Shown piece by piece: positions 33,701-56,300 of a stretch of 64,000 nucleotides of DNA; the stretch's first letter is position 1; each line of letters starts with the position of its first letter. The notes under the pieces were generated by a model, which saw nothing but the letters and a program-made list of their open reading frames with translations, did not search any database and was not told the DNA's origin. The position numbers and the translations under genes are program-made. Source of the DNA: Protoeuglena noctilucae (lineage: Eukaryota); the NCBI GenBank assembly GCA_958009085.1, contig OY253677.1, positions 372,001-436,000 on the forward strand, read 5' to 3'.

Positions 33701-35674
33701 GGATTGGGTGGGGGCATGTGGGGAAATGGGGAAGCAGGGAGGGGCAGGGTGGGGAGGGAGTCAACGTCTCTGCAAGGGGTTCACAAGAGAAAAGGGGGGA
33801 CCGGAGATCAGAGGGACGCACGTCACATCACAGCACGCCCCTCCCACGCAGGTGGCGGTTCGCGAGGCGAATGCGGCGGCGGCGGCGGACGCGGCGGTGG
33901 CGGAGAGGGACGCGGCAGTGAAGAGGGCGCAGGTCATGGCCGGGGAGCTGCAGAGGGCGCACGCGGCGGTGGTGGACGCCAGGGCAGAGGGGCGGGCAGA
34001 GGTGCATGGGCCATGGGCAGTGAGATGACCGTCACACTCACCCTCACTGCCACCCCCACCCTCACTGCCACCCCCACCCTCACTGCCACCCTCACCCTCA
34101 CTGCCACCCCCACCCTCACTGCCACCCTCACCCACACTGCCACCCTCACCCTCACTCCCAGGCCCTGAAAGAGCTGCGCCGGGAGGTGGAGGCGGCCAAG
34201 GCAGCGAAGGAGGAGGCACTGCGAGCGGCAGCATCGTCCGCAGCCGAGCGTCACCGCCTGGCGGGGCGGGTGCAGCTGCTGGAGGCGGAGTGCGGGGCTG
34301 CGGGGGAGGAGCTGCGAGCGCTGCGGGAGCGGCTGGCGGGGGCGACAGAGGCGGAGGTGGCGGCGTTAGAGGCGGCGCTTGCAGAGGCAGACGCAGACAG
34401 GGTGTCGCTGCGCGCGAGGGTGGAGGTGGCGGAGGGGGAGCGGGAGCGGGAGCGGCGGGTGGCGGCGGCGCAGCTGCGGGCGGCGGAGAGGCGGGCGGAG
34501 GAGGCGGAGGGGCGGGCGGCCAGGGCGGGGGAGAGGGCTGAGGCGGCGGAGAGGGAGGGGGCGGGTGAGGGGGGAGGGGAGGGGTGGCTGGGTGGGGGGG
34601 GCGTAGTGGGGGTGTGAGGAGTGAGGAGGGTTGCGAGGCCCTCACCCGCAGCCGCTGCCCCTCACCTCACCCCTCTCCTCGTCACTACTCTCCTTCTTTA
34701 TCTGTATCCATCACCCCTCTCCCCTCCTTCGCAGAGTCTGCCAAGTCCCTGGGTCTCCTGCAGGAGGAGGTGGATGCGTTGAGGGAGGACCTGAGGAGGG
34801 CGCAGGTGGAGCTGAGGGAGACGGAGGCGCGGATGCAGGCAAGGGGGGGGGAGATGAGAGGGGGGTTAGTAAGAGAGGGTGGGGGGGTGAGGTGTGGGAG
34901 GGAGACGGAGGCGCGGATGCAGGCGAGGGGTGGGGAGGTAGCAAAGGGAATGAAATGATGGGAGAGGGGGTGTGGTTGACGGTGAGGGGGGTGGGGAGAT
35001 GGGGAGAGCAGGGGAGGGCGGGCGACCGTGAGGCCTTGTGTCAGGTACATTCCCTCACCAACCCTCTACCTCTATCTCACCAGCTCTTTTTCATCCCCAC
35101 CTACCCTCCCTCGCCCCCAGGCTCAGCTGGACGCGGCACGGATGGAGGCCGAGTCTCACCGCGCAGCCAAGACGGCAATGGTGGAGGTGAGATGAGAGAT
35201 GGGGGAGGTTGGGGACGAGAGGGGAGGTTGGCAAGGGTGAGGTGTTTCTTTGTCTCTCATCTGTGCTCTAAAGGAGGTTGCCGAAAGGCCACTTATCAAT
35301 CCCTGTCGTTTCTAATAACCCCCCTTCACTGCGCTCAGCCAAGGACGAGGCTGTCAAATGCCATCTACCAATCCCTGTCCTTTCTCTCGNNNNNNNNNNN
35401 NNNNNNNNNNNNNNNNNNNNNNNNNNNNNNNNNNNNNNNNNNNNNNNNNNNNNNNNNNNNNNNNNNNNNNNNNNNNNNNNNNNNNNNNNNNNNNNNNNNN
35501 NNNNNNNNNNNNNNNNNNNNNNNNNNNNNNNNNNNNNNNNNNNNNNNNNNNNNNNNNNNNNNNNNNNNNNNNNNNNNNNNNNNNNNNNNGAGGGCGAGGG
35601 TGACCGCCCTCGCGAGGACGCGCGCGACGACAACCGCCTGCGCTAGGGGGCATTGCAGGGGCCGCGCTGAGTAG
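30774..35674 (+). CDS. Long coiled-coil protein, CEP89/SCLT1-like (centriole distal appendage); 3' part interrupted by an assembly gap
   Basis: Multiple E/A/R-rich coiled-coil exons. PWLSDGEVLPPLLAAYDRRIAELE...IELLSKENDLVTQQLE resembles the recalled CEP89 PWLLD.KYLSPLLLAYED...ENKLLLEQLE segment. The stop position is uncertain. Confidence 0.5.
34035..34158 (+). repeat. Intronic 18-bp minisatellite (ctcactgccacc[cc/ct]cacc)n, about 7 copies
   Basis: Directly visible tandem array ending just before the ccccag acceptor. Confidence 0.9.
35390..35589. other. Assembly gap (200 N)
   Basis: Run of N, preceded by two copies of ta(t/c)caatccctgtc(g/c)tttct about 73 bp apart, suggesting a collapsed tandem repeat. 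Confidence 0.99.
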
Positions 35675-41343: not shown

Positions 41344-44300
41344 TCAGAGCACGGCCAGGAAAAGGAAAGCAGCTAGGGTTGCATTGCTCGCCGCAATCAC
41401 AACTGAACTTGACTGTTTCGTCGGCACAGGCGTGGACGGAGTGGATCCAGGGACTGAAGAGGGTGCGGAAGTGGTGCTGGTTGCAGCGGACGCCACCACG
41501 GATGGGACTGCGATCTGGTAGAGTGCGGAGGTGGAGTCGGCCGCCGCGGCGATGAGGGCCGATTGGATGTCCGTGGCCAGTGCCGAGCCGGTCCCGACTG
41601 CCGTCACCAGTGCCTGGGCTGCTGTGTCGGTGGCAGCAGCCACAGCAACGTTGAGGTTCACCGCCACCTGTGAATAGGAATGGACATCAGGATATGGGAA
41701 TGCAGCTCTTCACGACCAAGCACTTTTTGCAAAAAGCGCATGCAAGCACTTTCAGCGAGCAGCAGCACTCACGTCGAGGAGGGCACGGCGCGACGTGGAA
41801 GCCGTGACGACGACCGACGAGGTCGGCACGCCCAGCTTGGCGGCTACGGTGCTTTGGACCTGGGCCTCGATAGCAGCCAGCACGATGCTCGAGGGCTGGG
41901 TCCTGAACGAGAGCGTGACCGTGAACTTGGCCTGGGGAGTGCCCGAGGCGATGGGCGTGGGGCTCGGGAAGAGGTCGTTGATGACGATGTTCATCGAGAA
42001 CACGTCCGAGGTCTGGTAGCCCGAGCCCGCCGTCTTGGGGCTGCACGACAGCACCAGCGTTGTGGCTGAGCCGGTGACGCTGGGCATGGCCGACAGGTAC
42101 ACGGCCGTGGAGGACGTGGTGACGGCGATGTCGGGCGTGGTGGCCGTGGAGGACGCCAGGACCGAGCCGGTGTAGGCGGGGGAGTTCTTTTCGTTGGTCA
42201 GCGTGCAGTGGACCGTGACGGCCTGGTTGAGGGCCTGCAGGTTGATGAGGTCGCCTGCCGCATACTGCGTCAGCTCGATGGCCTGGATGGACGTGACCTG
42301 GGAGCCAGCCGTGAGCGCCTTGCCCTTGGAGTCGGTGACAATGGCCTTGGTGCCCGTCACGAACACCACCGTCTGGTTCCGCACATAGACGTCGAACTTG
42401 GCCGTCTCGGTCGTGTACCCGCCGGCCGACGACGAAGGCGTGCATGGGTAGGTCACCGTCTTGTCGGCGCTGATGGTCAGCGAGGTCGGGATGGTGACGC
42501 TGACGGCGCTGCCGCCCACCAGGTTGCTAGTCGTGGACATGGAGAGGGCTGATGTGATGTTGGGCAACGTGGCAGTGTCGCTCGATGTGCACGTCACAGA
42601 GACGGAGGCCGTCGGGGGGACCGTCGTGTAGAGCTTGACCAGGGCACCGGACGTGCTGCTCTGGAGCTCAAATACGGCCGGCGTGAGCGAGGCCGAGCCC
42701 GAGGCCAGGAGGGTTCCGCTGGCGACCGACGTGCCGCTGGCCGTCGTGGCCGATGAGCCGGCCACGGCCACGAGGGCGCGAGCGAGGACCACGACGTTGA
42801 ACTCGACGCTCTCAGTGCCCTTGTAGGGCGCGGAAGCGCACACCACCGAGCACGTGTAGGTCACGGTCGTGTTCTTGGTCACGGCCGCGGGGTTGCGCAG
42901 AGACAGGGCCGCGCCGGCGTTCAAGAGGCCCGAGACGGTGACGTCCGTCATCACGGCCGTGTTGCTGGACGCGCAATAGACGTCCACGGCCACCTCTTTG
43001 TTGGTCGAGTCCAGGGCGGGCGTCTTGGTCATCAGCTTGACCGCGTCGCCGCTGCCAGCGTACATGATGAGCAGCGGCGCCAGGGGTGCGGTGGTCGTGC
43101 GGCCAATGTTGGTGCCGGCCGTGATGGACAGGAGCGTCGAGCTGTCGAGCGAAGACGAGCCCGCCAAGGCCATCAGGCCGTAGTAGTATATGTAGATGTT
43201 GAACGTGACCACATCAATCGTGCTCAGGCCGCCAGCCGTAGTTGTCGGGGCGCACAAGTAGGTCACAATGTAGTCACCACTCAGGGACCCCTTGGGCGTG
43301 GGGATCTGTATTTTGACCGGCGTGGTGCCTGAAACGGAAAGGCCCGTGATGTCGGCCAGCACCGTTGAGGCGCTGCTCATACAGCCGAACGCGACCGTGG
43401 CGGTGGCCGTGGCGTTCAGGCTGATGGTCGCGACGGCACCCGAAGTCGTCGACTGGCCATACATGATGGCGGGCGTGATGGCGAGCGAACCGCCACCCGA
43501 GATGTCCGTGCCGGAGGCAAGCGCCAGGTTGGTGTCCGCGCGGAGGGCGGAAGAACCGGCCTTGATGGTGGGCTTGAGGGCCACGACCTTGATGTCAAAG
43601 AAGACCGTCCCTGTCACCGTCGTTTTGGCCACAGCTGGGGTCGTCGGGGCAGGGATGGCTGCGGAAGTGGACGTCCTCGTTGGAGTGGATGTAGGCGCGG
43701 GCGTCGAGCTTGGCGTGGTGCCAAACGGGGTCCCGGAGGGCGCGGGCGGAGCTACGGAGCCGGGGGTGCACGTGTAGGTCACGGTGGTGTCAGCAAAGAC
43801 GGATGAGGCCACCGGGATCGTGATGGGCACGGCGGTGGCGGTCGAAAGGGACACGTTGTTGATGTCAGCGAGCACGGTCGAGTCGCTCGATTTGCACGAA
43901 TAGGTCGTTGCCTTTTGGGGGGCCGCCGTGGCCTGCAGGGCCACGATGGTGCTGGAGGCCGCCGCGCCCTCGTACACGACAGGCGTGCGCGAGGCGATGC
44001 CCGAGCCGAGGATGGAGCCGCCGGCAGTGAGAGTCGTGGTCCCGTCGGCGGCCATGCCCGCAGCCGAGCCCGCCACGACCTGGGCGGTGGGGTTGGAGAC
44101 GAACACGTCAAAGGTGACGCTCACGGTGGTCGCGAAGCCCCCAGACGCGGCGCTGGGTGCGCACGTGAAGGTGACGAGCGTGCCCGCCGAGACGACCGCG
44201 GGAGTGGGGAGGACCAGGTTGACGGCGGCGGTCGTCGAGACGGAGGTGGCTGCCACGTTTCCGATGACGGTCTTGTTGCTCGACGTGCACACGTAGCTGA

Positions 44301-47300
44301 CGGCAGCAGTGGGGGCCACATTAGCCTTGAGTGCGACCGTGGAGCCCGCAGCATAGGTGAAGCCCGCGTAGAGCTGCACCGTCTTGGCCAGGGACCCACC
44401 GCCGCTGATCTTGGTGGACGTGGAGAGCCCCGTGTGGCCGTCCGCGGCCGTGAGCGCCACGCTGGGGTAGACGTCGACCATGCGGGGCACGACCGTCACG
44501 TCGAACGTGAACGAGTCGGCCGTGGTGAGGCCGCTCGCGTTGGCCGTAGGGGCGCACGTGAAGGTGACCGTGGTGGCCGTCGAGACGTCGCCAGCAGCGC
44601 CGAAGGTGAGGCCCACGGCGGTGGTGGACGACACGCTGGCCGTTTCGTCCGCGAGGGTCTTGCTGTCGAAGGACATGCACTTGTAGGTCACGGCGTCCGA
44701 GAGAGTGCCGTTGGCCACCAGCTGGACGAGGGCGCCGGCAGCGGGGGTCACGGTCGTCACGATCGAGGGCGTCTTGGCAGCGTTGCCCGAGGCCAGGGCA
44801 GTGCCCTGCGCCAGCATGGCGCCGGCGGCCGTGGTCGCAGCCGTGCCGGCCTGGGCAGACACCGCCAGGGGCACGACCGTCACGTCGAAGGTGGACGTGT
44901 CGGAGGTCGTCACGCCGCCCGCAGCGGCCGTGGGCGCGCACGTGTAGGTCACCGTCGTTGCCTTGTCGATCTGGCCGCTCTGGGGCAGGCCCACCGATAC
45001 GGCCATGGTGCTGTTGACCTGGACCGACGACACGCTGCCGAGCACGGATGTGTTGGAGGACATGCACGAGTAGGTGATGGTCGCCGTCGGTGTAGAGTTG
45101 GCCTGCAGCGCCACCACATTGGAGATGCTGCTCGCCGCCGCCAACTCGATGATCTGCGGGGTGGCCGATGCCTTGCCCGACACCAGCATGGTGCTGGTCG
45201 TCATGGCCGTCTTGCCATCCGCGGCCGTCTGGGCGGTACCGCTGTAGGCCGCGACCACGATCGCCTTGACGTGGACCGTGAAGGCCACGCTCTCGGACGT
45301 CGTCAGGCCACCCGCGCTGGCCTTGGGGGTGCACGTGACGATGACGTCCGTGTCCGCGTTGATGGAGCCCGGGATCGGCAGCGTGATGGCCGCCTTGGTC
45401 GACGACAACGTGACATCCGAGATGGTCCCGATCACGCTCGAGTTGTTGCTCGAGCAGGCATACATGACCGACACGCTGGCCCCATTGTTGGCCGGCGTCG
45501 TGTTGGCCAGCAGCTCGACGGTCGTGCCAAGGCCAGTGGACTGGCCCTCATAGAGAACAAAGGACTTGCTCGAGGGCAGGGCCGTGTCCGCAGCCAGGGT
45601 CGTGCCGTCGCTGAGGGTCTGCGAGGAGGCTGCGGCTGCTCCAACGCGGATGGCCACCACGTTGATCCAGAACATGACCGAGTCCGTAGTCGACAGGTTT
45701 CCGAACGCTGCGGTGGGCGCGCACGTGTAATTGATCTGCACGTTGGCTGTGCCCATGTTGGTTGGGGCGGGGAGTGTGATGGCGTTTGCATTTGTGTCGT
45801 TGGTGATGGACACAGAGTCGATGTTAGGCATGATATTCGTGTTGTTGGACGTGCACTTGACCGCGCCCGTCCCACCCGGTGCCACGTTCTGCTGCAGCTT
45901 TACCTTAAAGCTATCAAAGCCTGCGCCCTCGAAGACCTGCATAGCTAGCGCAGCGTTGAATGCCCTGCTTGTCAGGTCAGTAGATCTGCTGCCGAAGGCC
46001 GTCCCGTTGCCGTTCAGAACAGTGGCAAAGGCGGGCACTGGCATCAGCTTGGCGCACATGACATGCACATCGAACTTGACCGTGTAGTTGGACGGGGCCG
46101 TGCCCGTGAAGACGAACCCGCCGCCGCTGGTGGGCGAGCAAGTGTAGGTGACAGTGGTGTCGGCCGAGATGCCCGTCACCGCCGGGATCGTGAGGGTTGT
46201 CACGCTCGTGTCCGTGATGTTGAAGGCCGCCACGGCAGGGGCGATCGTCGTGTTGCTCGAGCTGCAGGAGAAGGACACAGTGCCGGCAGGGGCGTAGTTG
46301 AGCTGGAGGCCGATCTGGCCGGTCGACGAAGACCCCTCGTACAGCACGGGCGTCATGGACGTGGAGCCGGTCGTCGAGTAGCTAATGGAAGTGCCCGAGG
46401 CGATCGCGGTGCCGTCCGACTGGCGCGTCAGTGTGGATGCGCTGACCACCGCAGAGACGGAGCGCGGCATGATCGTGACCTGGAAGCTCACGGCCTGGCC
46501 CGCCAACACGCCCGTCGGCGCGGGCATGGACGCAACCGTGCACGTTACGGTGACCGGAGCAGCCGCACTGGTTGTACTAGGAGCAGGAAAGTCAATGGAT
46601 GCTGTGGTAGCGCCACTGACCGTCACGGTGGCGGGACTGGCCAGGACCGAGGGCATGTCAGTTGTGCACAAGATGGTGGCCGTGGCCGAGTTGCCAAATT
46701 GGAGCGTGGCAACAGCGCCAGAAGCCGTGTCCTCGCCCTCAAAGATGCGGGGCCTGAGGCACGTGGAGGTACTCAGGACGGTGCCCGCCATGATCTGGGC
46801 TGTCGGCCTCGTGCTGCGGTAGGCAGCAGAGCCCGCGACCGCCTGCATCTGAGGCGTCACGTCGACGATGAAAGCCGTCTTGATGTTGGACCAGCTGCTG
46901 TCACCGCTGGGAACGGTGCACTTGACGTAGATCTTGGTCTGCGTCGTCACGTTCTGGATCGTGATGGTCGTGGCCGTCCCGAAGATGCCGTGCGCGGCGA
47001 TGTTGTTGGCGGTCGACCCGCTCGTGTTGGCAGTCGTGGCAAACGTAAACGTGTCCGAGGTCGTCCCGCTCACCGTAAAGGCCCTCGAGGCTTTGGAGGA
47101 GAAGGCGGCATCGCTGTACGCTGTGCAGGATACAATGCTGCCCGCTGTTAGAGGAGTGTTGGCAGCTCCGTTCTGGAACTTGAGCGTCACCGAGTCCCCG
47201 CCGACCTGGGACGCAGTACCGAAGGCCGTGCTGATCATCGGGTTGTTGGGGGCCCAGACGGACGTGGTGTTGCCGCTGACCTTGAGGAGGACGATGTCGC

Positions 47301-50300
47301 CGTCCGCCACAGACGGGTAGGCTGTGCCGAGGGTCAGGTTCTGCCCCATCGTGGCTCCGGAGGTGCCGAACGACTTGGTGTAGTCGGTCGAGGTGGCGGA
47401 GTCGGGGAGGTTGATCGTGTTGCCGCTCGTGCACGTGACGCTGATGGAGGCACCCGCGTTGTCGCCGTTGAGCTTCACAGCGAACAGGTAGCCCGCGGTG
47501 GGCGCGAGGTACTCCTTGTCAACGACCTTGACCGTGCTAGGCACGATGGTGCTCGAGCTGAGGGAGCTCCCGCTCGTCAGGGACGTGTTGGACCCGGCCA
47601 CAATCAGGATTTGCATGGGCTGGATGACAATGGTGACAGAGAAGCCGTCCGTGGTCAGCAGGTGGTTGGCCGCCGTCGTGACCTTGCACGTCAGCGTGAT
47701 GGTCTTCGAGGTCGTAATGGAGTTCGGGGTGTTGAGGGTCATGTTGACGGCAGTCGTGTCCGTCACGGCAGCCGCCGTGGGGGTCGCGCTGAAGTCGCTC
47801 GTCCCCGACTCGGTGCAGGTCAGCGCGTTGGCGCCACCCGAGTTGCCGTTCAACGCAACCTTAAGCACCGTTCCACCCACGTCAGCCTGACCCTCCACCA
47901 CGACCACCTGGCCGAGGGAGCTGCTGCCGATCGTCGACACGATGGCCGTGTTCGCGCCATACGCCGTCAGGTTGCCCGTGCTGTCGACAGACTTGTACGC
48001 GGCCGACTGGGCATACACCACAAAGGCCAGCGGCTGGAGCGTGATATTGAGCTGGAAGCCGTCGGACGTGGTCAGGTGGTTGCCAGCCGTAGTTACCCTG
48101 CATGTCAGCGTGATGCTGACGGGGGAGCTCAGGTCTGCGACCGTCTTCATGTCCATTGCAACCTGGGTCGTGTCGGTGACGTTCGCAACCGTGGGCACAG
48201 TGCTGCTTGCGAAGCTGGAGGCAGTGGCCGTTGTGCACGTGAGGGCGTTGGCGCCCCCCGATGCACCATTCAGCGAGACCTTGATCGTGCTGCCCGCCGT
48301 GTCAGTCTGGCCCTCCAGCAGGTACACCGTGCCGTTGGACGCCCCGCCGATGGCAGCGGTGATGGCCGTGGCTGTGCCAAACGTGGTCAGCGCGTTGGTC
48401 GACGCCACGCCCTTGATGGCGCCCGACTGGGCCGTCACGATGAAGCCCAGCGGCTGCAGGGTGATATTCACACTGAAGCCGTCGCTCGTCGTCAGGTGGT
48501 TGCCCGCCACCGCCACCGTGCACGTCAGCGTGATGGTCTTGGCCGTGGACAGGTCGGCAACGGTCTTCATGTTGATGGCCACGTCGGTTGCGGTCGATAC
48601 GGGGGCCACCACCGGCAGCAGGCTGTTGGAGAAGTCGGTCGGGGTGGTGGTCGCGCACGACAGGAAGTTAGAGCCGCCCGAGTTGCCGTTCAGCTGCACC
48701 TGGAGGACGGAGCCGCCGGGGAAGTTGCCGACCGTAATGCCGCCGAGCGGACTTGAGAGAGCTGATGCCAGACCCAGGGAGACCGCGGCTGCGCTTGTCG
48801 AGCTGACCGTGTAGGTGATAACAGTCGACACGTACTGTGAGAAAGGCCATGTGAAGGTTATTTTGTCGCCGGCAACAAACGTGCCACCAAGGTACACAAT
48901 ATCCACGGCGGGACCTGGATGGCCTGCAAGCACAGCATTAGCATTCTTGCCAAAGCCTGTGCTGCCTGTCAACTGCGTCACAGTAACCATGTAATTTGGG
49001 AAAAATTTTGAAAGACCAACGGGAAATTCTGTATTTCCATCTGACGCCGTGATGGTGAAGGCGTTCGTCGTGCTGAGCGTGGCTGAGCCGTTGAGCACCT
49101 CAGAGAGCAAGGAGGCGAGGACGCTCGCAATAGTGGTGGTCGTCGGCACGGCCTGGGCATTAAGCGTCAGAGTAATCTCCACATTCCCTTGGGTCACTGC
49201 GATGACGTTGCCTCCCGCAGGTGTCCCGCCGATGGTGATTGTGTCGATCTGCTTCGTCCCCGACGAGTTGGCCGTCCTCGTGGCCTGGGCAGCCGTCGCC
49301 CCACCCCCCGTGGTAGTGACCGTATAGGTCGGCAGCGCTGTGCCGGCCGTTGTGGCGGTGATGGTGACTACAGCCGCACTGCTGGAGATCGCGGCCCCAT
49401 CAAGCTGCGGGCCCAGCGCGGTCTTGAGCCCTGCAACGACCTGCCCCAGACTGGTCCCGTCCGTCGAGTTGACCGTATACTTCCACGACACGGCTGCCCC
49501 GGTATTACTGTCTTTGCCAGCTATCGTGATGGTGTCGGTCGCTTTGAACGTCCCGCCCAAAGCAATCCCGACAACCTGTGCCACCCCGATTCCGTCGACG
49601 ACCAAAGTAGCCATGCCCCCCATGGCGCTCGAACCGACACCGACTTGGTTAACGGCGACTGTGTAAGAGTCAATTGGCGACCCTGCCCCGGTGGCGTTGA
49701 GCAAAAGCACGTTGTCACTGGCAATGGTGACTCCACCCAAGGGAAACGCCAGCGCGGCCCCGACCCCCGCACCCACGTTGATGGAAGTAGTCCCGTCTGT
49801 TGAGTTCACCTTGTACGTCACAGAGGACGTCACGCTGGCACTCGGATTGAACTCCACAGCCACAGAGTCTTGATAAGCTGCCGAAAATGTACCACCCAGG
49901 ACCAAGAGATCCTGCTGGGCGCCAGTTGCACTCGCCACGTTCACCGTCTGCTTGGTGGCTGTGCCATTGGTCGAAGACACCGTCACCTTGTATGTAAACG
50001 GCGTGTTCACCGCGTTGGCCGACAGCACGATGATGGTGGCGTCGGCGGTCCCGGAGTCCACTTGGCCCTCCAGCAGGTACACCGTGCCGTTGGACGCCCC
50101 GCCGATGGCAGCGGTGATGGCCGTGGCTGTGCCAAACGTGGTCAGCGCGTTGGTCGACGCCACGCCCTGACTGACTGACTCTCTTCACAAGGCTCACAGC
50201 TAAGATCGCGGATCTACCTCTTGCCACTATCGCCCGGGGCCCTCGAGCAGTGGCTTCAGCCGCTTTGGCAGTGCCAGGGCCAGCAACTACCAACGCCAGG

Positions 50301-53300
50301 GAAGCTTGCATCAGCGGTGTAGAGTACATCACCACCGCCTAGCCACAAAGAAAAAAGGCGTGAGACATGAAGCCGTCACGCCGCTCAAGGGGGCACCCCC
50401 TTGGGAATGGAGCGCCCCGGGGGGCGGAGAGAGACAGCCCAGGAGGGCGGCAACACTCAGAACGAGCGGAGCAACACCCACCGGGGAGGCCCGGCGGGGG
50501 AGGAAGGCGCCCCGTGGGGCGGGAGGAGAAAGCCCAGGAGGGCGGCAGCACCCGAGAAGGGAGGAGCAACACCCACCGGGGGGGCCCGGCGGGGGAAGAG
50601 CGGCTGGCAGAGGGGGCGGGGCTGCGTAGTGGGCAAGCCGGACGAGGCGCTTGCCCCGAAGCAAACCACGGCCGGGCAGGCACGCAAAACGCAACCACAC
50701 CAGCGCTACAGGCCGCGGAGACACACAGGCAGGCGGGAAAGAGGCGAGGCGCGGCGGCGCATCGGGCGCAGCACCACAAGCTGGGCGGGCGCGGCCGGGG
50801 CCAGGCAAGGGGCCATGGCGCTCAACGGACACGCGCGCGGCCGTTTCTAACCTCTGCATGCGGGAGGAAGGGCGCGCGGGGGCGCTGGAGGGGCGGGCGC
50901 GCGGGGTCGCGCGCCGAAGATCTCGGCCAGGCCGGGACGAAAACTCGACGGAGCGCACGCAGATCGCGGCGCCGCTTCGGGAGACGCTCTTGAATGAAGA
51001 GAAGAAGCTCGGGAAGGCGAGGAAGACTGCCCCCCACGCCGTATGAGACGCCCGTGGGGGGGGATGGCCGACCAGGGGTCGGGAGCCGCGCTCGCCACTC
51101 AAGGCGCCAACACGCGTTGTTTTTGGACCGGCTCTTAGCCACCGGGCTGGGGCGGGGCCACGGTGTTTCCAGAGTTCGCCACGGGGAGGCGGCCGGCGGG
51201 ACACGAGCCCGAGAGACTCCGGTCGACGCCACGCCCTTGATGGCGCCCGACTGGGCCGTCACGATGAAGCCCAGCGGCTGTGCCACCAGGTTGAAGCTGA
51301 AGCCGTCGCTCGTCGTCAGGTGATTGCCGGCAGCGGAGACGTTGCAGGTGACGGTGACGCTGGCCGCCGTGTCAATGTCCGCAACCGTCTTCAGATCCAC
51401 GGCAACCTGTGTCGTATCCGTCACAGCAGCCACAGTGGGGACCGTGCTGCTCACAAACTTGGTAGCGTCCCAAGCCTTGCACGTCAGGGTGTTGCTGCCG
51501 CCCGAGGGAGCGTTGAGCGCCACCTTGAGCGTGTTGCCAGGCGTGTCGGCAGTGCCCTCAAGCACGATGACGGTGCCGTTAGAAGTCCCGCCAATGACGG
51601 CAGGGATGGCGGTCGCCGACCCGTACGTGGTGAAGACGTTGGTCGAGGCGATTGACTTGTTAGCCGCTGCCTGGGCGTACAGCACGAACTTGAGGGGGTC
51701 GGCAATGACCGTGAAGGTCACGCTGTCGGTGGTGCTGAGGCCGCCGGCGGCCGAGCTGGGGGCGCACGTGATCGTGATGGACTTCTGCGCGCTAATGTCG
51801 GCGACCGTGCCGATGGTGAGGTCGAAGGGTGTGCTGGAGGAGATGGTGCTGGCGACTGTCACGCTGGGGATGACGGTCGTGTCGCTGGGCGTGCAGGTGA
51901 TGGTCACCGCGGCGGTCGGGGCCGAGTTGGCCTTGATCGTGACCGTGGCGCCCGCCGTGTCGACCTGCGCCTCGATGCGGACCACCCGGTTGTTGCTGGA
52001 CGTCAGGTCCGTGTCAGCACTAAACATGGTATACCTGCCGTCAGTGTTGATGGACTTGATCGCGCCCTTCTTGGCCGTGATGACCAGCTTGAGCGGGGTG
52101 GCGACTATGTACGTCGACGCCGTGCTGTAGACGCGCCCAGCGCCGTTGGTGGCCGTGCAGGTGAGCAGGACGTTGGAGGCAGCGCTGATGGGCTGCACTG
52201 CAGGGAGCGTGATGCCCATGGCTGAGGTACCCGAGCCGCTGGCGATCGAGACCGTGTAGTCGGTGCTGGTCGTGCTGTTGGCGAGGACGCTGCTCATGGA
52301 GCTGTCCACCAGGCACGTGACAGTCAGGGGTTCGGGTGCGCTCCGGTCGAGGATGACCTGGACGAGACCCCCCGAGCCGTAGGCGTAGCCCTCGACAGCG
52401 ATTATGCTCGTGCCGGGGAGGATGGAGAGCACCAGCGGGGTAGCCGTGACCGTGACCGTCGCCGTGTCGGTAGGCGTGGTCTTGGCCGAGGAGAGGTAGG
52501 CGCCCGTGACATCTGCAGCAACGGCGCACGTCAGGGTGGCGTCCGCAGTCATCAGATTCCCAACGCTGGCCGTGGGGGCAGGTGTGGCCGTGGGAGCAGG
52601 GGTCGAGGGCGGCGACGGGGTGGCAGCCGTGGTGGGCGCGGGGGTGCCCGCGGTCGGCGTGGTGGGTTGGGTCGGCATGGCGACACCGGTGCCTTTCTTC
52701 AGCGGGAAGGCCGTGTCGACGGTCAGGGCCCCCGAGTACGCGGTGAGCTGACCACTGGAGGACACGGTGTAGAGGGCAATGTCGATACCAAGGATTTGAG
52801 GGAATGACGTGCCCACTTGGTCACGCCCACCGGCGTAGATCAGCATCCACGTGTTGGTCTGCGGAGGGAGCTGAGTTGTGCGGTGATGCTTACTGCTAGT
52901 GGAAGCAGTGGAAGAGGCAAACTCGGTAGCAGCGCTCACCACGATGGCAATCTCGACTACCGAGGCATGAGGGTTGCCAGGGCAGGCACTCGACGTTCCG
53001 TTGGTAGTGATGTCCGGCATGTCGTCCGCACATGCGCTGGCGGTGCCGATCGCATCATTGACGGGGTCGTAGGTGAAGACACTCAGCACCGTGTCATACG
53101 TGCTGTTGCAGGACGTAATCAACGCCACGCACTGCTGCCCGCCGCAGTCGGAGGTGGCTCTGGGGGACGGCGTGGAGACAGCAATCAGACATAGCGGCGC
53201 GCTCGCATACGCTTGGGCTGCAAGCATGGTGGCATGGCCACACTCACTGGAAGGCGAAGTAGGCGTCAGCCCCAGCAAAGGAACCGAGGGTTTGCTGGCA

Positions 53301-56300
53301 CGCCGAGAGCACGTCCACGTTGTAAGGCCACTCCTCGATGCGGAAGGCCGCCGAGTAGGGCAGCTGCGTGACCACGATGGGATTCTGCATGGTGTCACCC
53401 AAAGGGGCCCGGGTGTCCGCCAGTCGCACCGAGTAGACACCCCCATATGCGGGAAAGAGGGGCAGCGGCACATTCGTGGAAGGAAGCATACGAGAGCTGC
53501 ATCGGCGATCGCGGCGTGGCATCGCGCAGCGTGGCCCCCCACCAAAGTTGTCGTCTGATGAGGACGCCACTGCGTCGATGAAGACGCTGGGGGGGCCAAA
53601 ATAGGCCGCGGAGGTGGGCTCCACCACCCCGGTCTGCCCCGTGGCGTTCCCGGAGGCATCGTATATGGGCCGGGCCAGGGCGCCATAGTCCATGCTGACG
53701 TTGACATTAACCGTCTGAGCCTGGTTCCAGTTGCCTGCAAGTGAGCAGGCGCGTGCGTGGCATGCCGAGGGGCGAGCAGGCAGCGAGGTCGTTCCCACCT
53801 GGCACACCGATCCAATGTCGCACGGAGATCGGCAAGGCAAGGGTGGCATGACTCACCCGGCGTGAAAGTGAGCGAGCTGGTGCTGAGCGCGACACCGGAC
53901 CAGGTGCTCGAGACGGCCACCGTCACGTCCGCGGCTGGCTGGGCCGCCAGCTGCAGGCCCACGCTGGTGCTGCCCACGCGGGTGGTGATGTCCCACAGCT
54001 GGACTGTGGCGGTGAGGGCCTTCTTGGTCAGCGCCCGGGAGTACACGAGGTTGGTCGTGCCCTTGGACGCGTGCTGCGTGATGGCGCCGGACGTGGCCGT
54101 CAGGCATGCGGGGAACGGGGGGTGGGCGCAGGGTGCGGCGGCGAGGGAGCGAGGCAGTAGATGGATGTGTAGACCTGCTCTGTGAACGAAGCACCAGAAC
54201 ATCTACCAGAACATCTATGCCTCGCTCACTCTCGACGATGTGCTTCAACGCAAGGATGTCGATCTCCGTGTGCAGGGCCAGGTAGGCTGCTGCCGCCCCT
54301 GCCACGATGGGCGCGGACATGCTTGTGCCACTGAGGATGTGCCAGGGGCCATTTCCGCACTCGGCCACACGACCGAACTGAGGGAAAGAGGCGGGCGGGA
54401 GACACTGGGATGATGGGATGAGGTGGTGGCATGCAGGTGACAAGGAAATGCTTGGGTGGCCCCACAGTCAGGAGAGGGTGCATGGCAACTGTCGTCAAGA
54501 CGAGGCTCCTGCGGCCTCACACCTCGTTGCACGCGCCAAGGATGAAGACGCCAGGTGCAAACAGATCGACGCAGCTGCCGACATCAGAGAAGCTGGCGAG
54601 ATTGTCCATGAAGCCCGGGTAGGTTATTGAGGCTCCAACGGTGATGCCCCTGCATGGCGTGGAGGACGCAGATGGAAACTGACATTAACTCCGCGCCGTC
54701 CTGGCAAGGTCGACACCGCAAACTCTGTCGCAATCTCACCACGCAGAAGCGGCCGGAGACCCTGCGCACGCGTCCTGGGCCTCATTGCCCGCTGCCACGA
54801 CCGGGAGGATGCGCGACTGCACTAACTGATTCAGCAGGCGGCTCTGGTCGGAGTCGATGGTCGGAGAGCCATGCAGGGGCGGATTGTTGGGGATTAATGA
54901 GGGCATGGCCGCAGTCTATGTACAGTGCAGCACCTCCTTTTAAGCAATCTAGTAACTCACGAAAGACATGTTGACGACCGCCGGCGCGACGGGTGGGCTT
55001 GCAGCCGCCATCTGGAGCATGAGGTCTGCGGGGCCAAGTGTGGGGGGTGCAGCGGTAAGGCTCATGCACGAGGGCACCTTGATGCCGCGCTTCTGCACTG
55101 CGCCGCACGGCTGTATGGTCTGCCTTTGCGCCCCTCACCCACGGCTTGTGTCAAGGCAGTGCTGGCCAACGAGCCACTGTCGTCCGCCACCTTGAACGAG
55201 TAGATGTTTGCGCTCTTGGCCACGCCAGCCTGGTTGCCCGCCGCGAGACTCGCAACGTGCGTGCCATGGCCTACCCAGTCTGGGAGCCCATCAGGAACAC
55301 AGAGACGAGTGAGTTGTGCTTTAGCACCGATAGCAATGGGGGCAGAAAGGGACACTTGCCAAGTGTCACCGTAGTCATCGGGTCTTTCGCTTGAGGAGTA
55401 GGCGTTGAACGACAGCGTGACGCGGCTGACGCTGGCGTCGGTCTCGCAGTCGGCCTGGGTCGACCCCGACTGGAGGAAGTCGGGGTGACACTGCGTAGGG
55501 AGGGAGAGAGGCACAGGAGCATATCGCTTCTCATGACACCCTCGGCGCGCTGGCATGGGACGCAACACGACTGTCCTAGCCATCTCGATGCTCTGACAAG
55601 CCGCAGCGCCGCATTGACTGGGCACCTGGAACACGCCCGTGTCCGCGATGAAGACGTTTGCCCCAGTGCCCTGGGAGTAGTAGATGTACTTGAAATCCAG
55701 GGGAGGGTTTCGCTGATCGATGCGGTCCAAGTGAGTGAACTGCGAGACAGGATGCTCCGGGGGCATTGTGGGGACATGCATCGCGGCGACTAGTCGCTCG
55801 CGGCAACGTGCATGTAGACGGCTGTCCTGATAGCTCCCCAGGACAGGCAGCGAAAGCACCCGCGAGCGGCAGCCCGCGCCCTGCTCTTACCGCTCCAATG
55901 CTGCTCCCAATGCTTTCGATGGGCTGCGTTTGGGCGTTGGAGTTTGACGTCTGCCGCAGGACTCGGCCCAAGATGTGCAGCTCTCGGTCCTCATACACCC
56001 CGATAACTGCATGGCAAGGGCAGGAAATGCTCTTACCCCGCTCCCTACTCTCACTGCCAACCGCAACAGATCCAACTGGCCAGCGCCCCTCACTGTCGTC
56101 AGAAAGGGCGGCCAGTCCGCCGTGAAGGTCACCCTCGGCGCCCTGCACGACCATGGCCGGCCCCACGCGCGTCAGCACGCCGTGGCAAGCCAGGCCACCC
56201 TGCCCCGCTGCGCTCCCCGACCCCAGCCGCCCGCACAGCGCCTGCGCCCGCCCCTCGGACCCGGGCTCCAGCGTGACCAGCCACCGGGCAGAGGAAGCCT

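What the first reader, a model, noticed from the sequence alone, without database searches (positions are those of the whole stretch)
51128..51220. HDV-like self-cleaving ribozyme whose cleavage site coincides with the insertion boundary
Seen (minus strand): GGAGUCUC UCGGGCUCGUGUCCCG CCGGCC GCC UCCCCGU GGC GAACUCU GG AAA CACCGUGGCCCCGCCCCAGCCCGGUG GCUAA GAGCCGG. All HDV elements occur in the correct order (P1, P2, P3/L3, P1', P1.1 GG, P4, J4/2 GCUAA, P2'). G1 (51220) is the first base after the TSD, as expected if the self-cleaved RNA was the reverse-transcription template. Variant features are a bulged C in P1, a bulged A in P2 and a J1/2 hairpin.
Basis: partly seen in the sequence, partly recalled or inferred. 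Interest (0 to 1): 0.88.

Follow-up and report, generated by a model that had tools for sequence, protein, structure and literature searches.

The report
Self-cleaving ribozyme heading an algal retroelement
A 1-kb mobile element that recently jumped into a protein-coding gene of a marine green alga begins, at its very first base, with a sequence that folds like the hepatitis-delta-type self-cutting RNA that other jumping genes use to trim their own RNA: a well-supported new example of a known trick, not yet tested at the bench.

Summary
The 93 nt are the first bases of a non-coding insertion of about 1053 bp (51220..~50168). It has a 15-17 bp target-site duplication and an (AGTC)n tail, and it interrupts a giant repeat-protein ORF. 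The empty site is shown by a 100%-identical paralogous repeat and by a collinear homologue, P0003. A second, identical copy at another locus, with its own 17-bp duplication, starts at the same G.

Rfam gives no hit at gathering score. However, the two best sub-threshold hits on this strand, out of 4227 families, are the two HDV models (15.3 and 14.1 bits). My own post-hoc HDV descriptor finds one site in the window, starting at 51220. It finds 0.04 per shuffled window, with 11 of 300 shuffles giving any hit.

Weak points: an irregular P1, identical copies so no covariation, no unusual stability, and no cleavage data.

Verdict: a probable HDV-like 5'-processing ribozyme of a SIDE/SINE-like non-LTR retroelement in a green alga. 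It is a new member of a known kind.

The parts
51221..51235 (-). Upstream copy of the target-site duplication (GGCGTGGCGTCGACC, encodes GVAST of the host protein). It may extend to 51237 (AG).
51128..51220 (-). HDV-like ribozyme candidate, 93 nt. The predicted cleavage is 5' of G51220, between 51221 and 51220.
51213..51220 (-). P1 5' strand GGAGUCUC (C51215 bulged or mismatched)
51197..51212 (-). J1/2 with a 4-bp hairpin (CGGG/CCCG)
51191..51196 (-). P2 5' strand CCGGCC
51178..51190 (-). P3 (GCC/GGC) enclosing L3 UCCCCGU. This core matches the consensus of both Rfam HDV models with high posterior probability.
51171..51177 (-). P1 3' strand GAACUCU (U51171 wobble-pairs with G51220)
51169..51170 (-). 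GG of P1.1, pairing with two C's of L3
   Evidence: the register is set by analogy with HDV (recalled)
51140..51165 (-). P4 hairpin (8 bp, one bulged U)
51135..51139 (-). J4/2 GCUAA; candidate catalytic C at 51138
   Evidence: aligned to GGCUAA of both HDV models
51128..51134 (-). P2 3' strand GAGCCGG (A51133 bulged)
50350..51127 (-). Non-coding body of the element. No Pfam family was found for the two longest frames through it. It contains a 95-bp unit repeated 1.9 times at 50412-50596.
50181..50349 (-). 3' module. About 91% identical contigs of higher depth exist in run X1 (depth 215 against 117) and diverge upstream of 50349. This is the likely recognition end shared with another, possibly autonomous, family.
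50167..50180 (-). (AGTC)n tail. It reads (AGTC)3AG here and (AGTC)2AG in the second copy. Its last two bases overlap the possible extension of the duplication.
50152..50166 (-). Downstream copy of the target-site duplication
41752..54202 (-). Host gene: a giant Ser/Thr/Ala-rich repeat protein with no Pfam family, split by the insertion. The upstream frame runs into the element and stops at 50822. The downstream frame is open for 2803 codons.

Best explanation
Window 51220..~50168 (minus strand) is a non-autonomous non-LTR retroelement of about 1.05 kb, of the SIDE/SINE kind. It has a 5' ribozyme module, a non-coding body, a 3' module shared with another family, and an (AGTC)n tail. Its first 93 nt form an HDV-like self-cleaving ribozyme.

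Inferred mechanism:
1. The element has no promoter of its own that I could show, and it sits in the sense orientation inside a host gene, so it is transcribed as part of a longer RNA.
2. The ribozyme folds into the nested double pseudoknot. C51138 in J4/2 catalyses scission of the bond 5' of G51220.
3. This releases an element RNA whose 5' end is exactly the element's first base.
4. A reverse transcriptase and endonuclease supplied in trans then copy that RNA to its end by target-primed reverse transcription. This yields full-length copies with 15-17 bp duplications and tails of variable length.
5. At this locus the insertion breaks the host reading frame, and cleavage would also sever the host transcript.

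Shown: the fold is possible, the insertion is real, its ends are exact, and a second identical copy has the same 5' end. Inferred: catalysis, co-transcription, and the partner element.
For: (1) Sequence and pairs are verified.

(2) The insertion ends are fixed independently of the fold.
- The duplicated 15-mer flanks the insert.
- The two flanks joined give a sequence 100% identical, without a gap once the coordinates are corrected, to the intact paralogous repeat near 48397.
- The homologue P0003 (1172 aa, 62-68% identical) runs straight through the site. The upstream part ends at its residue 684 and the downstream part starts at 681, and the overlap is the duplicated VAST.

(3) A second copy exists. 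In RNA run X10 a 2467-nt contig matches 50171..51220 with 0 differences. It continues on both sides into other DNA that repeats AGCTCTCAGCAGGCAAC, a 17-bp duplication, so a separate insertion has the same 5' terminal G and a tail shorter by 4 nt (one AGTC unit). In run X1 a 990-nt contig ends exactly at 51220.

(4) Of 4227 Rfam families, the two best hits on this strand in a 121-nt search are RF02682 (15.3 bits, E 0.63) and RF00094 (14.1 bits, E 4.7). Both align L3/P3, GGAAAC, P4 and GGCUAA with high posterior probability.

(5) My descriptor finds 1 locus in 64 kb on both strands, starting at 51220. Shuffles give a mean of 0.04 hits, and 11 of 300 have any hit. The core with P4, J4/2 and P2 but without P1 occurs 0.30 times per shuffle.

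(6) The deviations lie within what active R2 ribozymes show (PMC3774820, passages and section 16).
- P1 is 6-7 bp, and about a quarter of elements have 1-2 mismatches at its top.
- About a third have mismatches in P2.
- J1/2 reaches 216-498 nt.

(7) The architecture of 5' ribozyme plus 3' end is that of R2 SIDEs (PMC3414825, abstract). HDV-like ribozymes at the 5' ends of promoter-less RTE, baggins and L1Tc elements are described in PMC6765202 (passages).

(8) In X10 the element has depth 50.7 while the host-gene flanks of this locus have depth 0. This is a weak hint that the element is present there as RNA rather than as contaminating DNA.
Against: - No Rfam family reaches its gathering score in the window (0 hits). 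The HDV models score 15.3 against 44 and 14.1 against 50 bits. Both place the P1 5' strand wrongly, in the J1/2 hairpin, with non-pairs marked.
- P1 is irregular (a bulged C or a C.A mismatch) and P2 has a bulged A. PMC3774820 states that P1 mismatches are uncommon in HDV-like ribozymes. It links them to absent in-vitro cleavage in horseshoe crab R2, sunflower and Anopheles funestus.
- There is no covariation. Across 50350-51220 the laid contigs of X1, X10 and X13 show no difference. X3 shows one (51065 T>A), outside the ribozyme.
- The 93 nt are not unusually stable: z = +0.98, and 163 of 200 shuffles fold at least as well. The nested MFE uses an alternative 5' hairpin that ties up the P1 strand.
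- The X10 contig crosses the predicted cleavage site by 19 nt, so some uncleaved RNA, or DNA, exists.
- The descriptor is post hoc. It found 0 sites in L001, which carries an HDV-like 5' half.
- The shared 5' end rests on two loci only. Depth of 117 against 73 for unique flank suggests about two copies.
Confidence: 0.72

Rival explanations
1. The fold descends from an HDV-like ribozyme but this version is inactive or very slow, because of the irregular P1 and the bulged P2. The exact 5' end would then come from something else, such as a transcription start at G51220 or processing by a host factor.
For: - P1 mismatches are linked to loss of in-vitro cleavage in three cited cases (PMC3774820).
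- The HDV covariance models score far below gathering.
- An RNA-library contig crosses the site.
- The MFE prefers a competing 5' hairpin.
Against: - The two copies are identical over 1050 bp, so mobilisation was recent and there has been little time for decay.
- The irregularity lies at the top of P1, far from the cleavage site. About a quarter of R2 ribozymes carry mismatches there.
- No promoter evidence was sought or found.
Confidence: 0.17
2. Chance resemblance: a GC-rich 5' end of a retroelement happens to allow HDV-like pairings.
For: - The window has about 66% G+C, and helices form easily.
- The fold is not more stable than shuffles.
- 11 of 300 shuffled windows contain some site that passes my relaxed descriptor.
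- L002 shows that the typed core pattern can match by chance.
Against: - A chance site (0.04 per 128,000 strand positions) would also have to start at the one base fixed by the duplication and by a second copy, on the element's sense strand.
- The only Rfam families aligning to this strand at E<5 are the two HDV models.
- The L3/P3/P1.1/J4/2 letters match the conserved letters of those models.
Confidence: 0.07
3. The insert is an intron or introner-like element that is spliced out, and the structured 5' end serves splicing rather than self-cleavage.
For: - The insert sits in sense orientation inside an exon, and the downstream frame is still open for 2803 codons.
- Contigs that skip 50152..51220 exist in X1 and in RNA run X13.
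Against: - Those skipping contigs differ from the window at 15 and at 8+3 positions, so they come from paralogous repeats or other strains, not from splicing of this locus.
- No GT..AG pair lies in a register that would restore the frame (read).
- The microsatellite tail of variable length and the 15-17 bp duplications fit target-primed reverse transcription.
Confidence: 0.03

Closest known systems
R2 SIDEs (short internally deleted elements) of Drosophila; PMC3414825
   Same: Non-autonomous and non-coding, built from a 5' HDV-like ribozyme joined to the 3' end of another non-LTR element. The 5' end is made by self-cleavage of a co-transcript.
   Different: - Not rDNA-specific: two different targets are seen here, one of them a protein-coding exon.
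- (AGTC)n tail and 15-17 bp duplications.
- The host is a green alga.
- The partner element is not identified.
- The whole ribozyme, including P1, lies inside the element.
L1Tc / NARTc HDV-like ribozyme (L1TcRz, Pr77) of Trypanosoma cruzi; PMC3185411, PMC3383444
   Same: An HDV-like ribozyme occupies the first bases of both an autonomous element and its non-autonomous derivative. It frees the element from longer transcripts, and insertion shows little site specificity.
   Different: - 93 nt here against 77 nt.
- No evidence here for promoter activity.
- No sequence relationship was tested.
- Poly(A) or other tails there (recalled) against a tetranucleotide repeat here.
RTE and baggins HDV-like ribozymes (Ruminski et al. 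2011, as summarised in PMC6765202)
   Same: Promoter-less non-LTR elements are transcribed within host transcripts and processed at the 5' end by an HDV-like ribozyme. RTE elements are associated with microsatellite tails (title of ref. 123 in PMC6765202).
   Different: Those elements encode a reverse transcriptase, and this one encodes nothing. Assignment of this element to the RTE clade is untested because no RT-bearing partner was available.
HDV genomic/antigenomic ribozymes (Rfam RF00094) and the F. prausnitzii ribozyme (RF02682)
   Same: The same order of P1-P2-P3-L3-P1'-P1.1-P4-J4/2-P2'. The letters of GCCUCC.CG.UGGCG, CUGG.AAC and GGCUAA are shared.
   Different: A 16-nt hairpin in J1/2, an irregular P1, and a bulge in P2. 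Scores reach only about a third of the gathering thresholds.

Membership tests
HDV-like self-cleaving ribozymes | Nested double pseudoknot with P1, P2, P3/L3, P1', P1.1, P4, J4/2 and P2' in this order | tested here: met
   All helices pair. The descriptor hit starts at 51220. P1 and P2 each need one bulge or mismatch.
HDV-like self-cleaving ribozymes | Cleavage-site G paired as G.U at the base of a 6-7 bp P1, directly followed by the GG of P1.1 | tested here: met
   G51220.U51171, then G51170 and G51169. The P1 length of 6-7 bp is taken from PMC3774820.
HDV-like self-cleaving ribozymes | Catalytic C in J4/2 followed by purines that dock on P3 | tested here: met
   GCUAA at 51139-51135 is aligned to GGCUAA of RF02682 and RF00094. 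The role of the C and of the A's is recalled knowledge, and catalysis is not testable here.
HDV-like self-cleaving ribozymes | Score at or above the gathering threshold of an Rfam HDV-type model | tested here: not met
   0 hits at gathering. Scores are 15.3 of 44 bits and 14.1 of 50 bits. A second HDV-like site, L001, also stays below threshold at 30.2 and 29.1 bits.
HDV-like self-cleaving ribozymes | Pairings kept by compensatory changes among relatives | tested here: inconclusive
   The copies are identical in the ribozyme. No relatives were found in metagenome contigs (2 loci, both unrelated) or in viral contigs (0).
HDV-like self-cleaving ribozymes | Mg2+-dependent self-scission giving a 5'-OH at +1 | not testable with these tools
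   Only assembled contigs of public runs were available, and they cannot show RNA ends.
Non-autonomous non-LTR retroelement (SIDE/SINE-like) | Insertion flanked by a target-site duplication of variable length, with an empty site known | tested here: met
   15-17 bp here and 17 bp at the second locus. Empty paralogue and collinear homologue.
Non-autonomous non-LTR retroelement (SIDE/SINE-like) | Simple-repeat or A-rich 3' tail whose length differs between copies | tested here: met
   (AGTC)3AG against (AGTC)2AG.
Non-autonomous non-LTR retroelement (SIDE/SINE-like) | No reverse transcriptase or endonuclease of its own | tested here: met
   No Pfam family was found in the 291-aa frame through the element or in the host frame that runs into it. 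All frames read as low-complexity Pro/Arg/Gly-rich sequence. No tRNA-like head.
Non-autonomous non-LTR retroelement (SIDE/SINE-like) | 3' end shared with an autonomous partner that supplies the RT | tested here: inconclusive
   The 3' ~120-180 nt occur at about 91% identity in contigs of higher depth that diverge upstream. Whether that family encodes an RT is unknown. No RT was found among the 73 window ORFs scanned, and no genome is held.

The most novel reading that the evidence does not exclude
This is a currently active ribozyme-headed parasitic retroelement in a marine green alga. It would be the first HDV-like 5'-processing ribozyme documented for a chlorophyte-type alga. Its ribozyme is wholly self-contained and tolerates a C.A mismatch or bulge in P1 and a hairpin in J1/2. 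Because it lands in transcribed exons in sense orientation, it acts as a natural self-cleaving gene trap that severs the host mRNA at the insertion point.
Probability: 0.45. Interest if true: 0.5.

Novelty: new member of a known kind. Interest (0 to 1): 0.4.

Why it matters
HDV-like ribozymes at the 5' ends of non-LTR retrotransposons are established in insects, other metazoans and trypanosomatids, and a plant example is cited (PMC3774820, PMC6765202).

My searches found no paper combining 'HDV-like' with 'Micromonas' (0 papers). Among the 15 papers that hold 'HDV-like' and 'alga', none reports such a ribozyme in an alga, judging by title and abstract. This covers the open-access library only.

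If the ribozyme is active, this element extends the mechanism to marine green picoplankton. It also gives a compact, evidently recent and therefore probably functional variant, with its J1/2 hairpin and irregular P1, for ribozyme biochemistry. And it shows a retroelement disrupting a very large cell-surface-like repeat gene in a natural population.

It does not open a new question. It is a clean, testable addition to a known class.

Tried and rejected
- Whole-genome search for further copies: no genome is held for this window.
- BLAST of the element against the window: only itself, its internal 95-bp repeat and a 25-nt chance match.
- Metagenome scan with the ribozyme core pattern: 2 loci.
  - L001 is an unrelated AT-rich contig with an HDV-like 5' half. 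Its GGCTAAG lies in a different hairpin.
  - L002 is a chance match.
  - Neither is a relative, so they give no covariation.
- Viral contigs with a 26-nt core: 0 matches.
- Earlier scan notes by place, sequence and words: nothing.
- ARAGORN: no tRNA-like head.
- Pfam on the element's frames and on 70 further window ORFs: no RT or endonuclease.
- ESM Atlas on the host protein: best score 0.89, no lead.
- Thermodynamic stability as evidence: rejected, z = +0.98.
- Positive control for my descriptor on L001: 0 hits. I had no accepted way to load published ribozyme sequences, so the descriptor stays uncontrolled.
- Splicing of the insert: the skipping contigs carry 11-15 differences and are paralogues.
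- Parts of the stretch without cover in X10 and X13, and the contig that ends 19 nt upstream of the site in X10: hints only, because contigs cannot show RNA ends.
- A published HDV descriptor was sought in PMC4035085. None is in its text.
- One literature search was badly framed (any 2 of 6 terms) and gave nothing relevant.
Full report
**What is there**

I checked every proposed pair against the sequence.
- P1 is G51220.U51171, G-C, A-U, G-C, U-A, then either a bulged C51215 followed by U-A and C-G, or a C.A mismatch followed by U.G, which keeps seven positions.
- A 16-nt J1/2 holds a 4-bp hairpin.
- P2 has six pairs with A51133 bulged.
- P3 is three G-C pairs around L3 UCCCCGU.
- GG (51170-51169) follows P1' directly and can pair with two C's of L3 to form P1.1.
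- P4 is an 8-bp hairpin.
- J4/2 is GCUAA, with the candidate catalytic C at 51138.

**The surroundings**

The window has about 66% G+C and is eukaryotic. It carries SRP14, ribosomal L27A, ankyrin, acyltransferase and glutamine synthetase fragments, some plainly split by introns. The closest named glutamine synthetases are from chlorophyte green algae at 62-70% identity, and closer hits are unnamed. The stretch occurs in marine metagenomes and metatranscriptomes: 16 of 23 listed runs hold part of it, 12 hold at least half of its words, and 7 are on record as RNA, from 6 studies. No whole genome is held.

**The insertion is real and its ends are exact**

- The 93 nt are the first bases of an insert of about 1053 bp inside a giant repeat-protein ORF.
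- The 15-mer GGCGTGGCGTCGACC lies immediately upstream (51221-51235) and immediately downstream (50152-50166) of the insert. Up to two more bases (AG) are shared with the element's tail, so the duplication is 15-17 bp.
- I first placed the downstream copy 4 nt off. The alignment exposed this through a 4-nt gap. With the right coordinates, the two flanks joined are 100% identical to the intact paralogous repeat near 48397.
- A homologous protein from another assembly (P0003, 1172 aa) is collinear across the site. The upstream part aligns up to its residue 684 (…VAST) and the downstream part from residue 681 (VASTN…).
- The element ends in (AGTC)3AG. This motif occurs nowhere else in the window.
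- It has no Pfam family, no tRNA-like head, and only low-complexity frames. It contains a 95-bp unit repeated 1.9 times.

**A second copy**

I laid the contigs of four public runs on 49900-51500.
- In RNA run X10, a 2467-nt contig matches 50171..51220 without a difference. It then continues on both sides into unrelated sequence that repeats AGCTCTCAGCAGGCAAC. This is a separate insertion with its own 17-bp duplication, a tail shorter by 4 nt (one AGTC unit), and the same 5' terminal G.
- In run X1, a 990-nt contig ends exactly at 51220.
- Depth in X1 is 117 for the element against 73 for unique flank, which suggests about two copies.
- The last ~120-180 nt of the element also occur at about 91% identity in contigs of higher depth (215) that diverge upstream of 50349. 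The 3' module is therefore shared with another family.
- The contigs that skip 50152..51220 carry 11-15 differences. They are paralogues, not spliced RNA.

Together these are the marks of target-primed reverse transcription of a non-autonomous element, built like the R2 SIDEs with a 5' ribozyme plus a borrowed 3' end (PMC3414825, abstract).

**Is the HDV likeness more than chance?**

- Rfam at gathering thresholds finds nothing in the window.
- With permissive settings on 121 nt, the two best hits on this strand, out of 4227 families, are HDV-F-prausnitzii (15.3 bits, E 0.63) and HDV_ribozyme (14.1 bits, E 4.7). Both align L3/P3, GGAAAC, P4 and GGCUAA with high posterior probability. Both misplace the P1 5' strand, because the models have no room for the J1/2 hairpin.
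- An unrelated HDV-like site fetched from a metagenome (L001) also stays below gathering, at 30.2 and 29.1 bits. Sub-threshold scores are therefore not unusual for divergent members.
- I wrote a descriptor with these requirements:
  - a 3-bp Watson-Crick P3;
  - an L3 of 6-8 nt with CC at positions 2-3;
  - a 7-nt P1' ending in U, followed by GG;
  - a P4 stem of at least 4 bp;
  - C-N-R-A in J4/2;
  - a P2 of at least 5 bp abutting P3;
  - a 7-bp P1 starting with G, within 25 nt upstream.
- Without bulges it finds nothing. With one bulge allowed in P1 and in P2 it finds one locus on both strands of the window, starting at 51220.
- In 300 dinucleotide shuffles, the mean is 0.04 hits per window and 11 shuffles have any hit. 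The core with P4, J4/2 and P2 but without P1 occurs 0.30 times per shuffle.
- A chance site would also have to begin at the one base that the duplication and the second copy define, on the sense strand.
- Caveats: the descriptor was written after seeing the candidate, it has no positive control (0 hits in L001), and I could not load published ribozymes.

**What speaks against it**

- The fold is not more stable than shuffles: z = +0.98, and 163 of 200 shuffles fold at least as well. The nested MFE uses a competing 5' hairpin.
- P1 is irregular. PMC3774820 says that such mismatches are uncommon and links them to failed in-vitro cleavage in three cases. The same paper also reports that about a quarter of R2 ribozymes have 1-2 mismatches at the top of P1, that about a third have mismatches in P2, and that J1/2 reaches 216-498 nt.
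- The copies are identical in the ribozyme, so there is no covariation. No relatives were found in metagenome or viral contigs.
- One RNA-library contig crosses the predicted site by 19 nt.

**Mechanism**

The element is transcribed within a host transcript. Here it lies in the sense orientation in an exon. The ribozyme cuts 5' of G51220, and the released RNA is copied to its end by a partner's reverse transcriptase. This gives full-length copies whose first base is G1. All parts of the ribozyme lie inside the element, so cleavage does not depend on the flank. This fits the two different upstream flanks seen. These steps are inferred from the known systems: R2, RTE, baggins and L1Tc/NARTc (PMC6765202, passages; PMC3185411 and PMC3383444, abstracts).

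**Verdict**

It is a new member of a known kind, probably the first described for a chlorophyte-type alga within the reach of my searches. Those searches cover the open-access library only and were judged on titles and abstracts. Bench cleavage and RNA end mapping are the decisive tests.

Noticed in passing
window 41752-54202 (-): A giant Ser/Thr/Ala-rich repeat protein gene (2803 codons downstream of the insertion and roughly 600 or more recognisable codons upstream). It has no Pfam family and no Atlas lead. Two of its repeat units are 100% identical over about 170 nt around the insertion site, which suggests recent duplication or gene conversion. The first ~390 codons of the upstream ORF look out of frame or intronic.
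   Followed up: partly
window 50412-50596: A 95-bp unit repeated 1.9 times (88% matches) inside the retroelement body.
   Followed up: partly
L001 1235-1334 (-): An AT-rich metagenome contig carries an HDV-like P1/P3/L3/P1.1 core with a perfect 7-bp P1 (RF00094 30.2 bits, RF02682 29.1 bits, both below gathering). A short P2 partner lies right after P1.1, so it may be a minimal HDV-like ribozyme without P4. It is unrelated to the element studied.
   Followed up: partly
window 35390-35589: A run of 200 N (assembly gap).
   Followed up: no
window 50181-50349 (-): The element's 3' module exists in run X1 in a roughly 91% identical variant at about twice the depth. Another variant also ends in an (AGTC)n tail (loose end at 50187). 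At least one more family therefore uses the same 3' end.
   Followed up: partly
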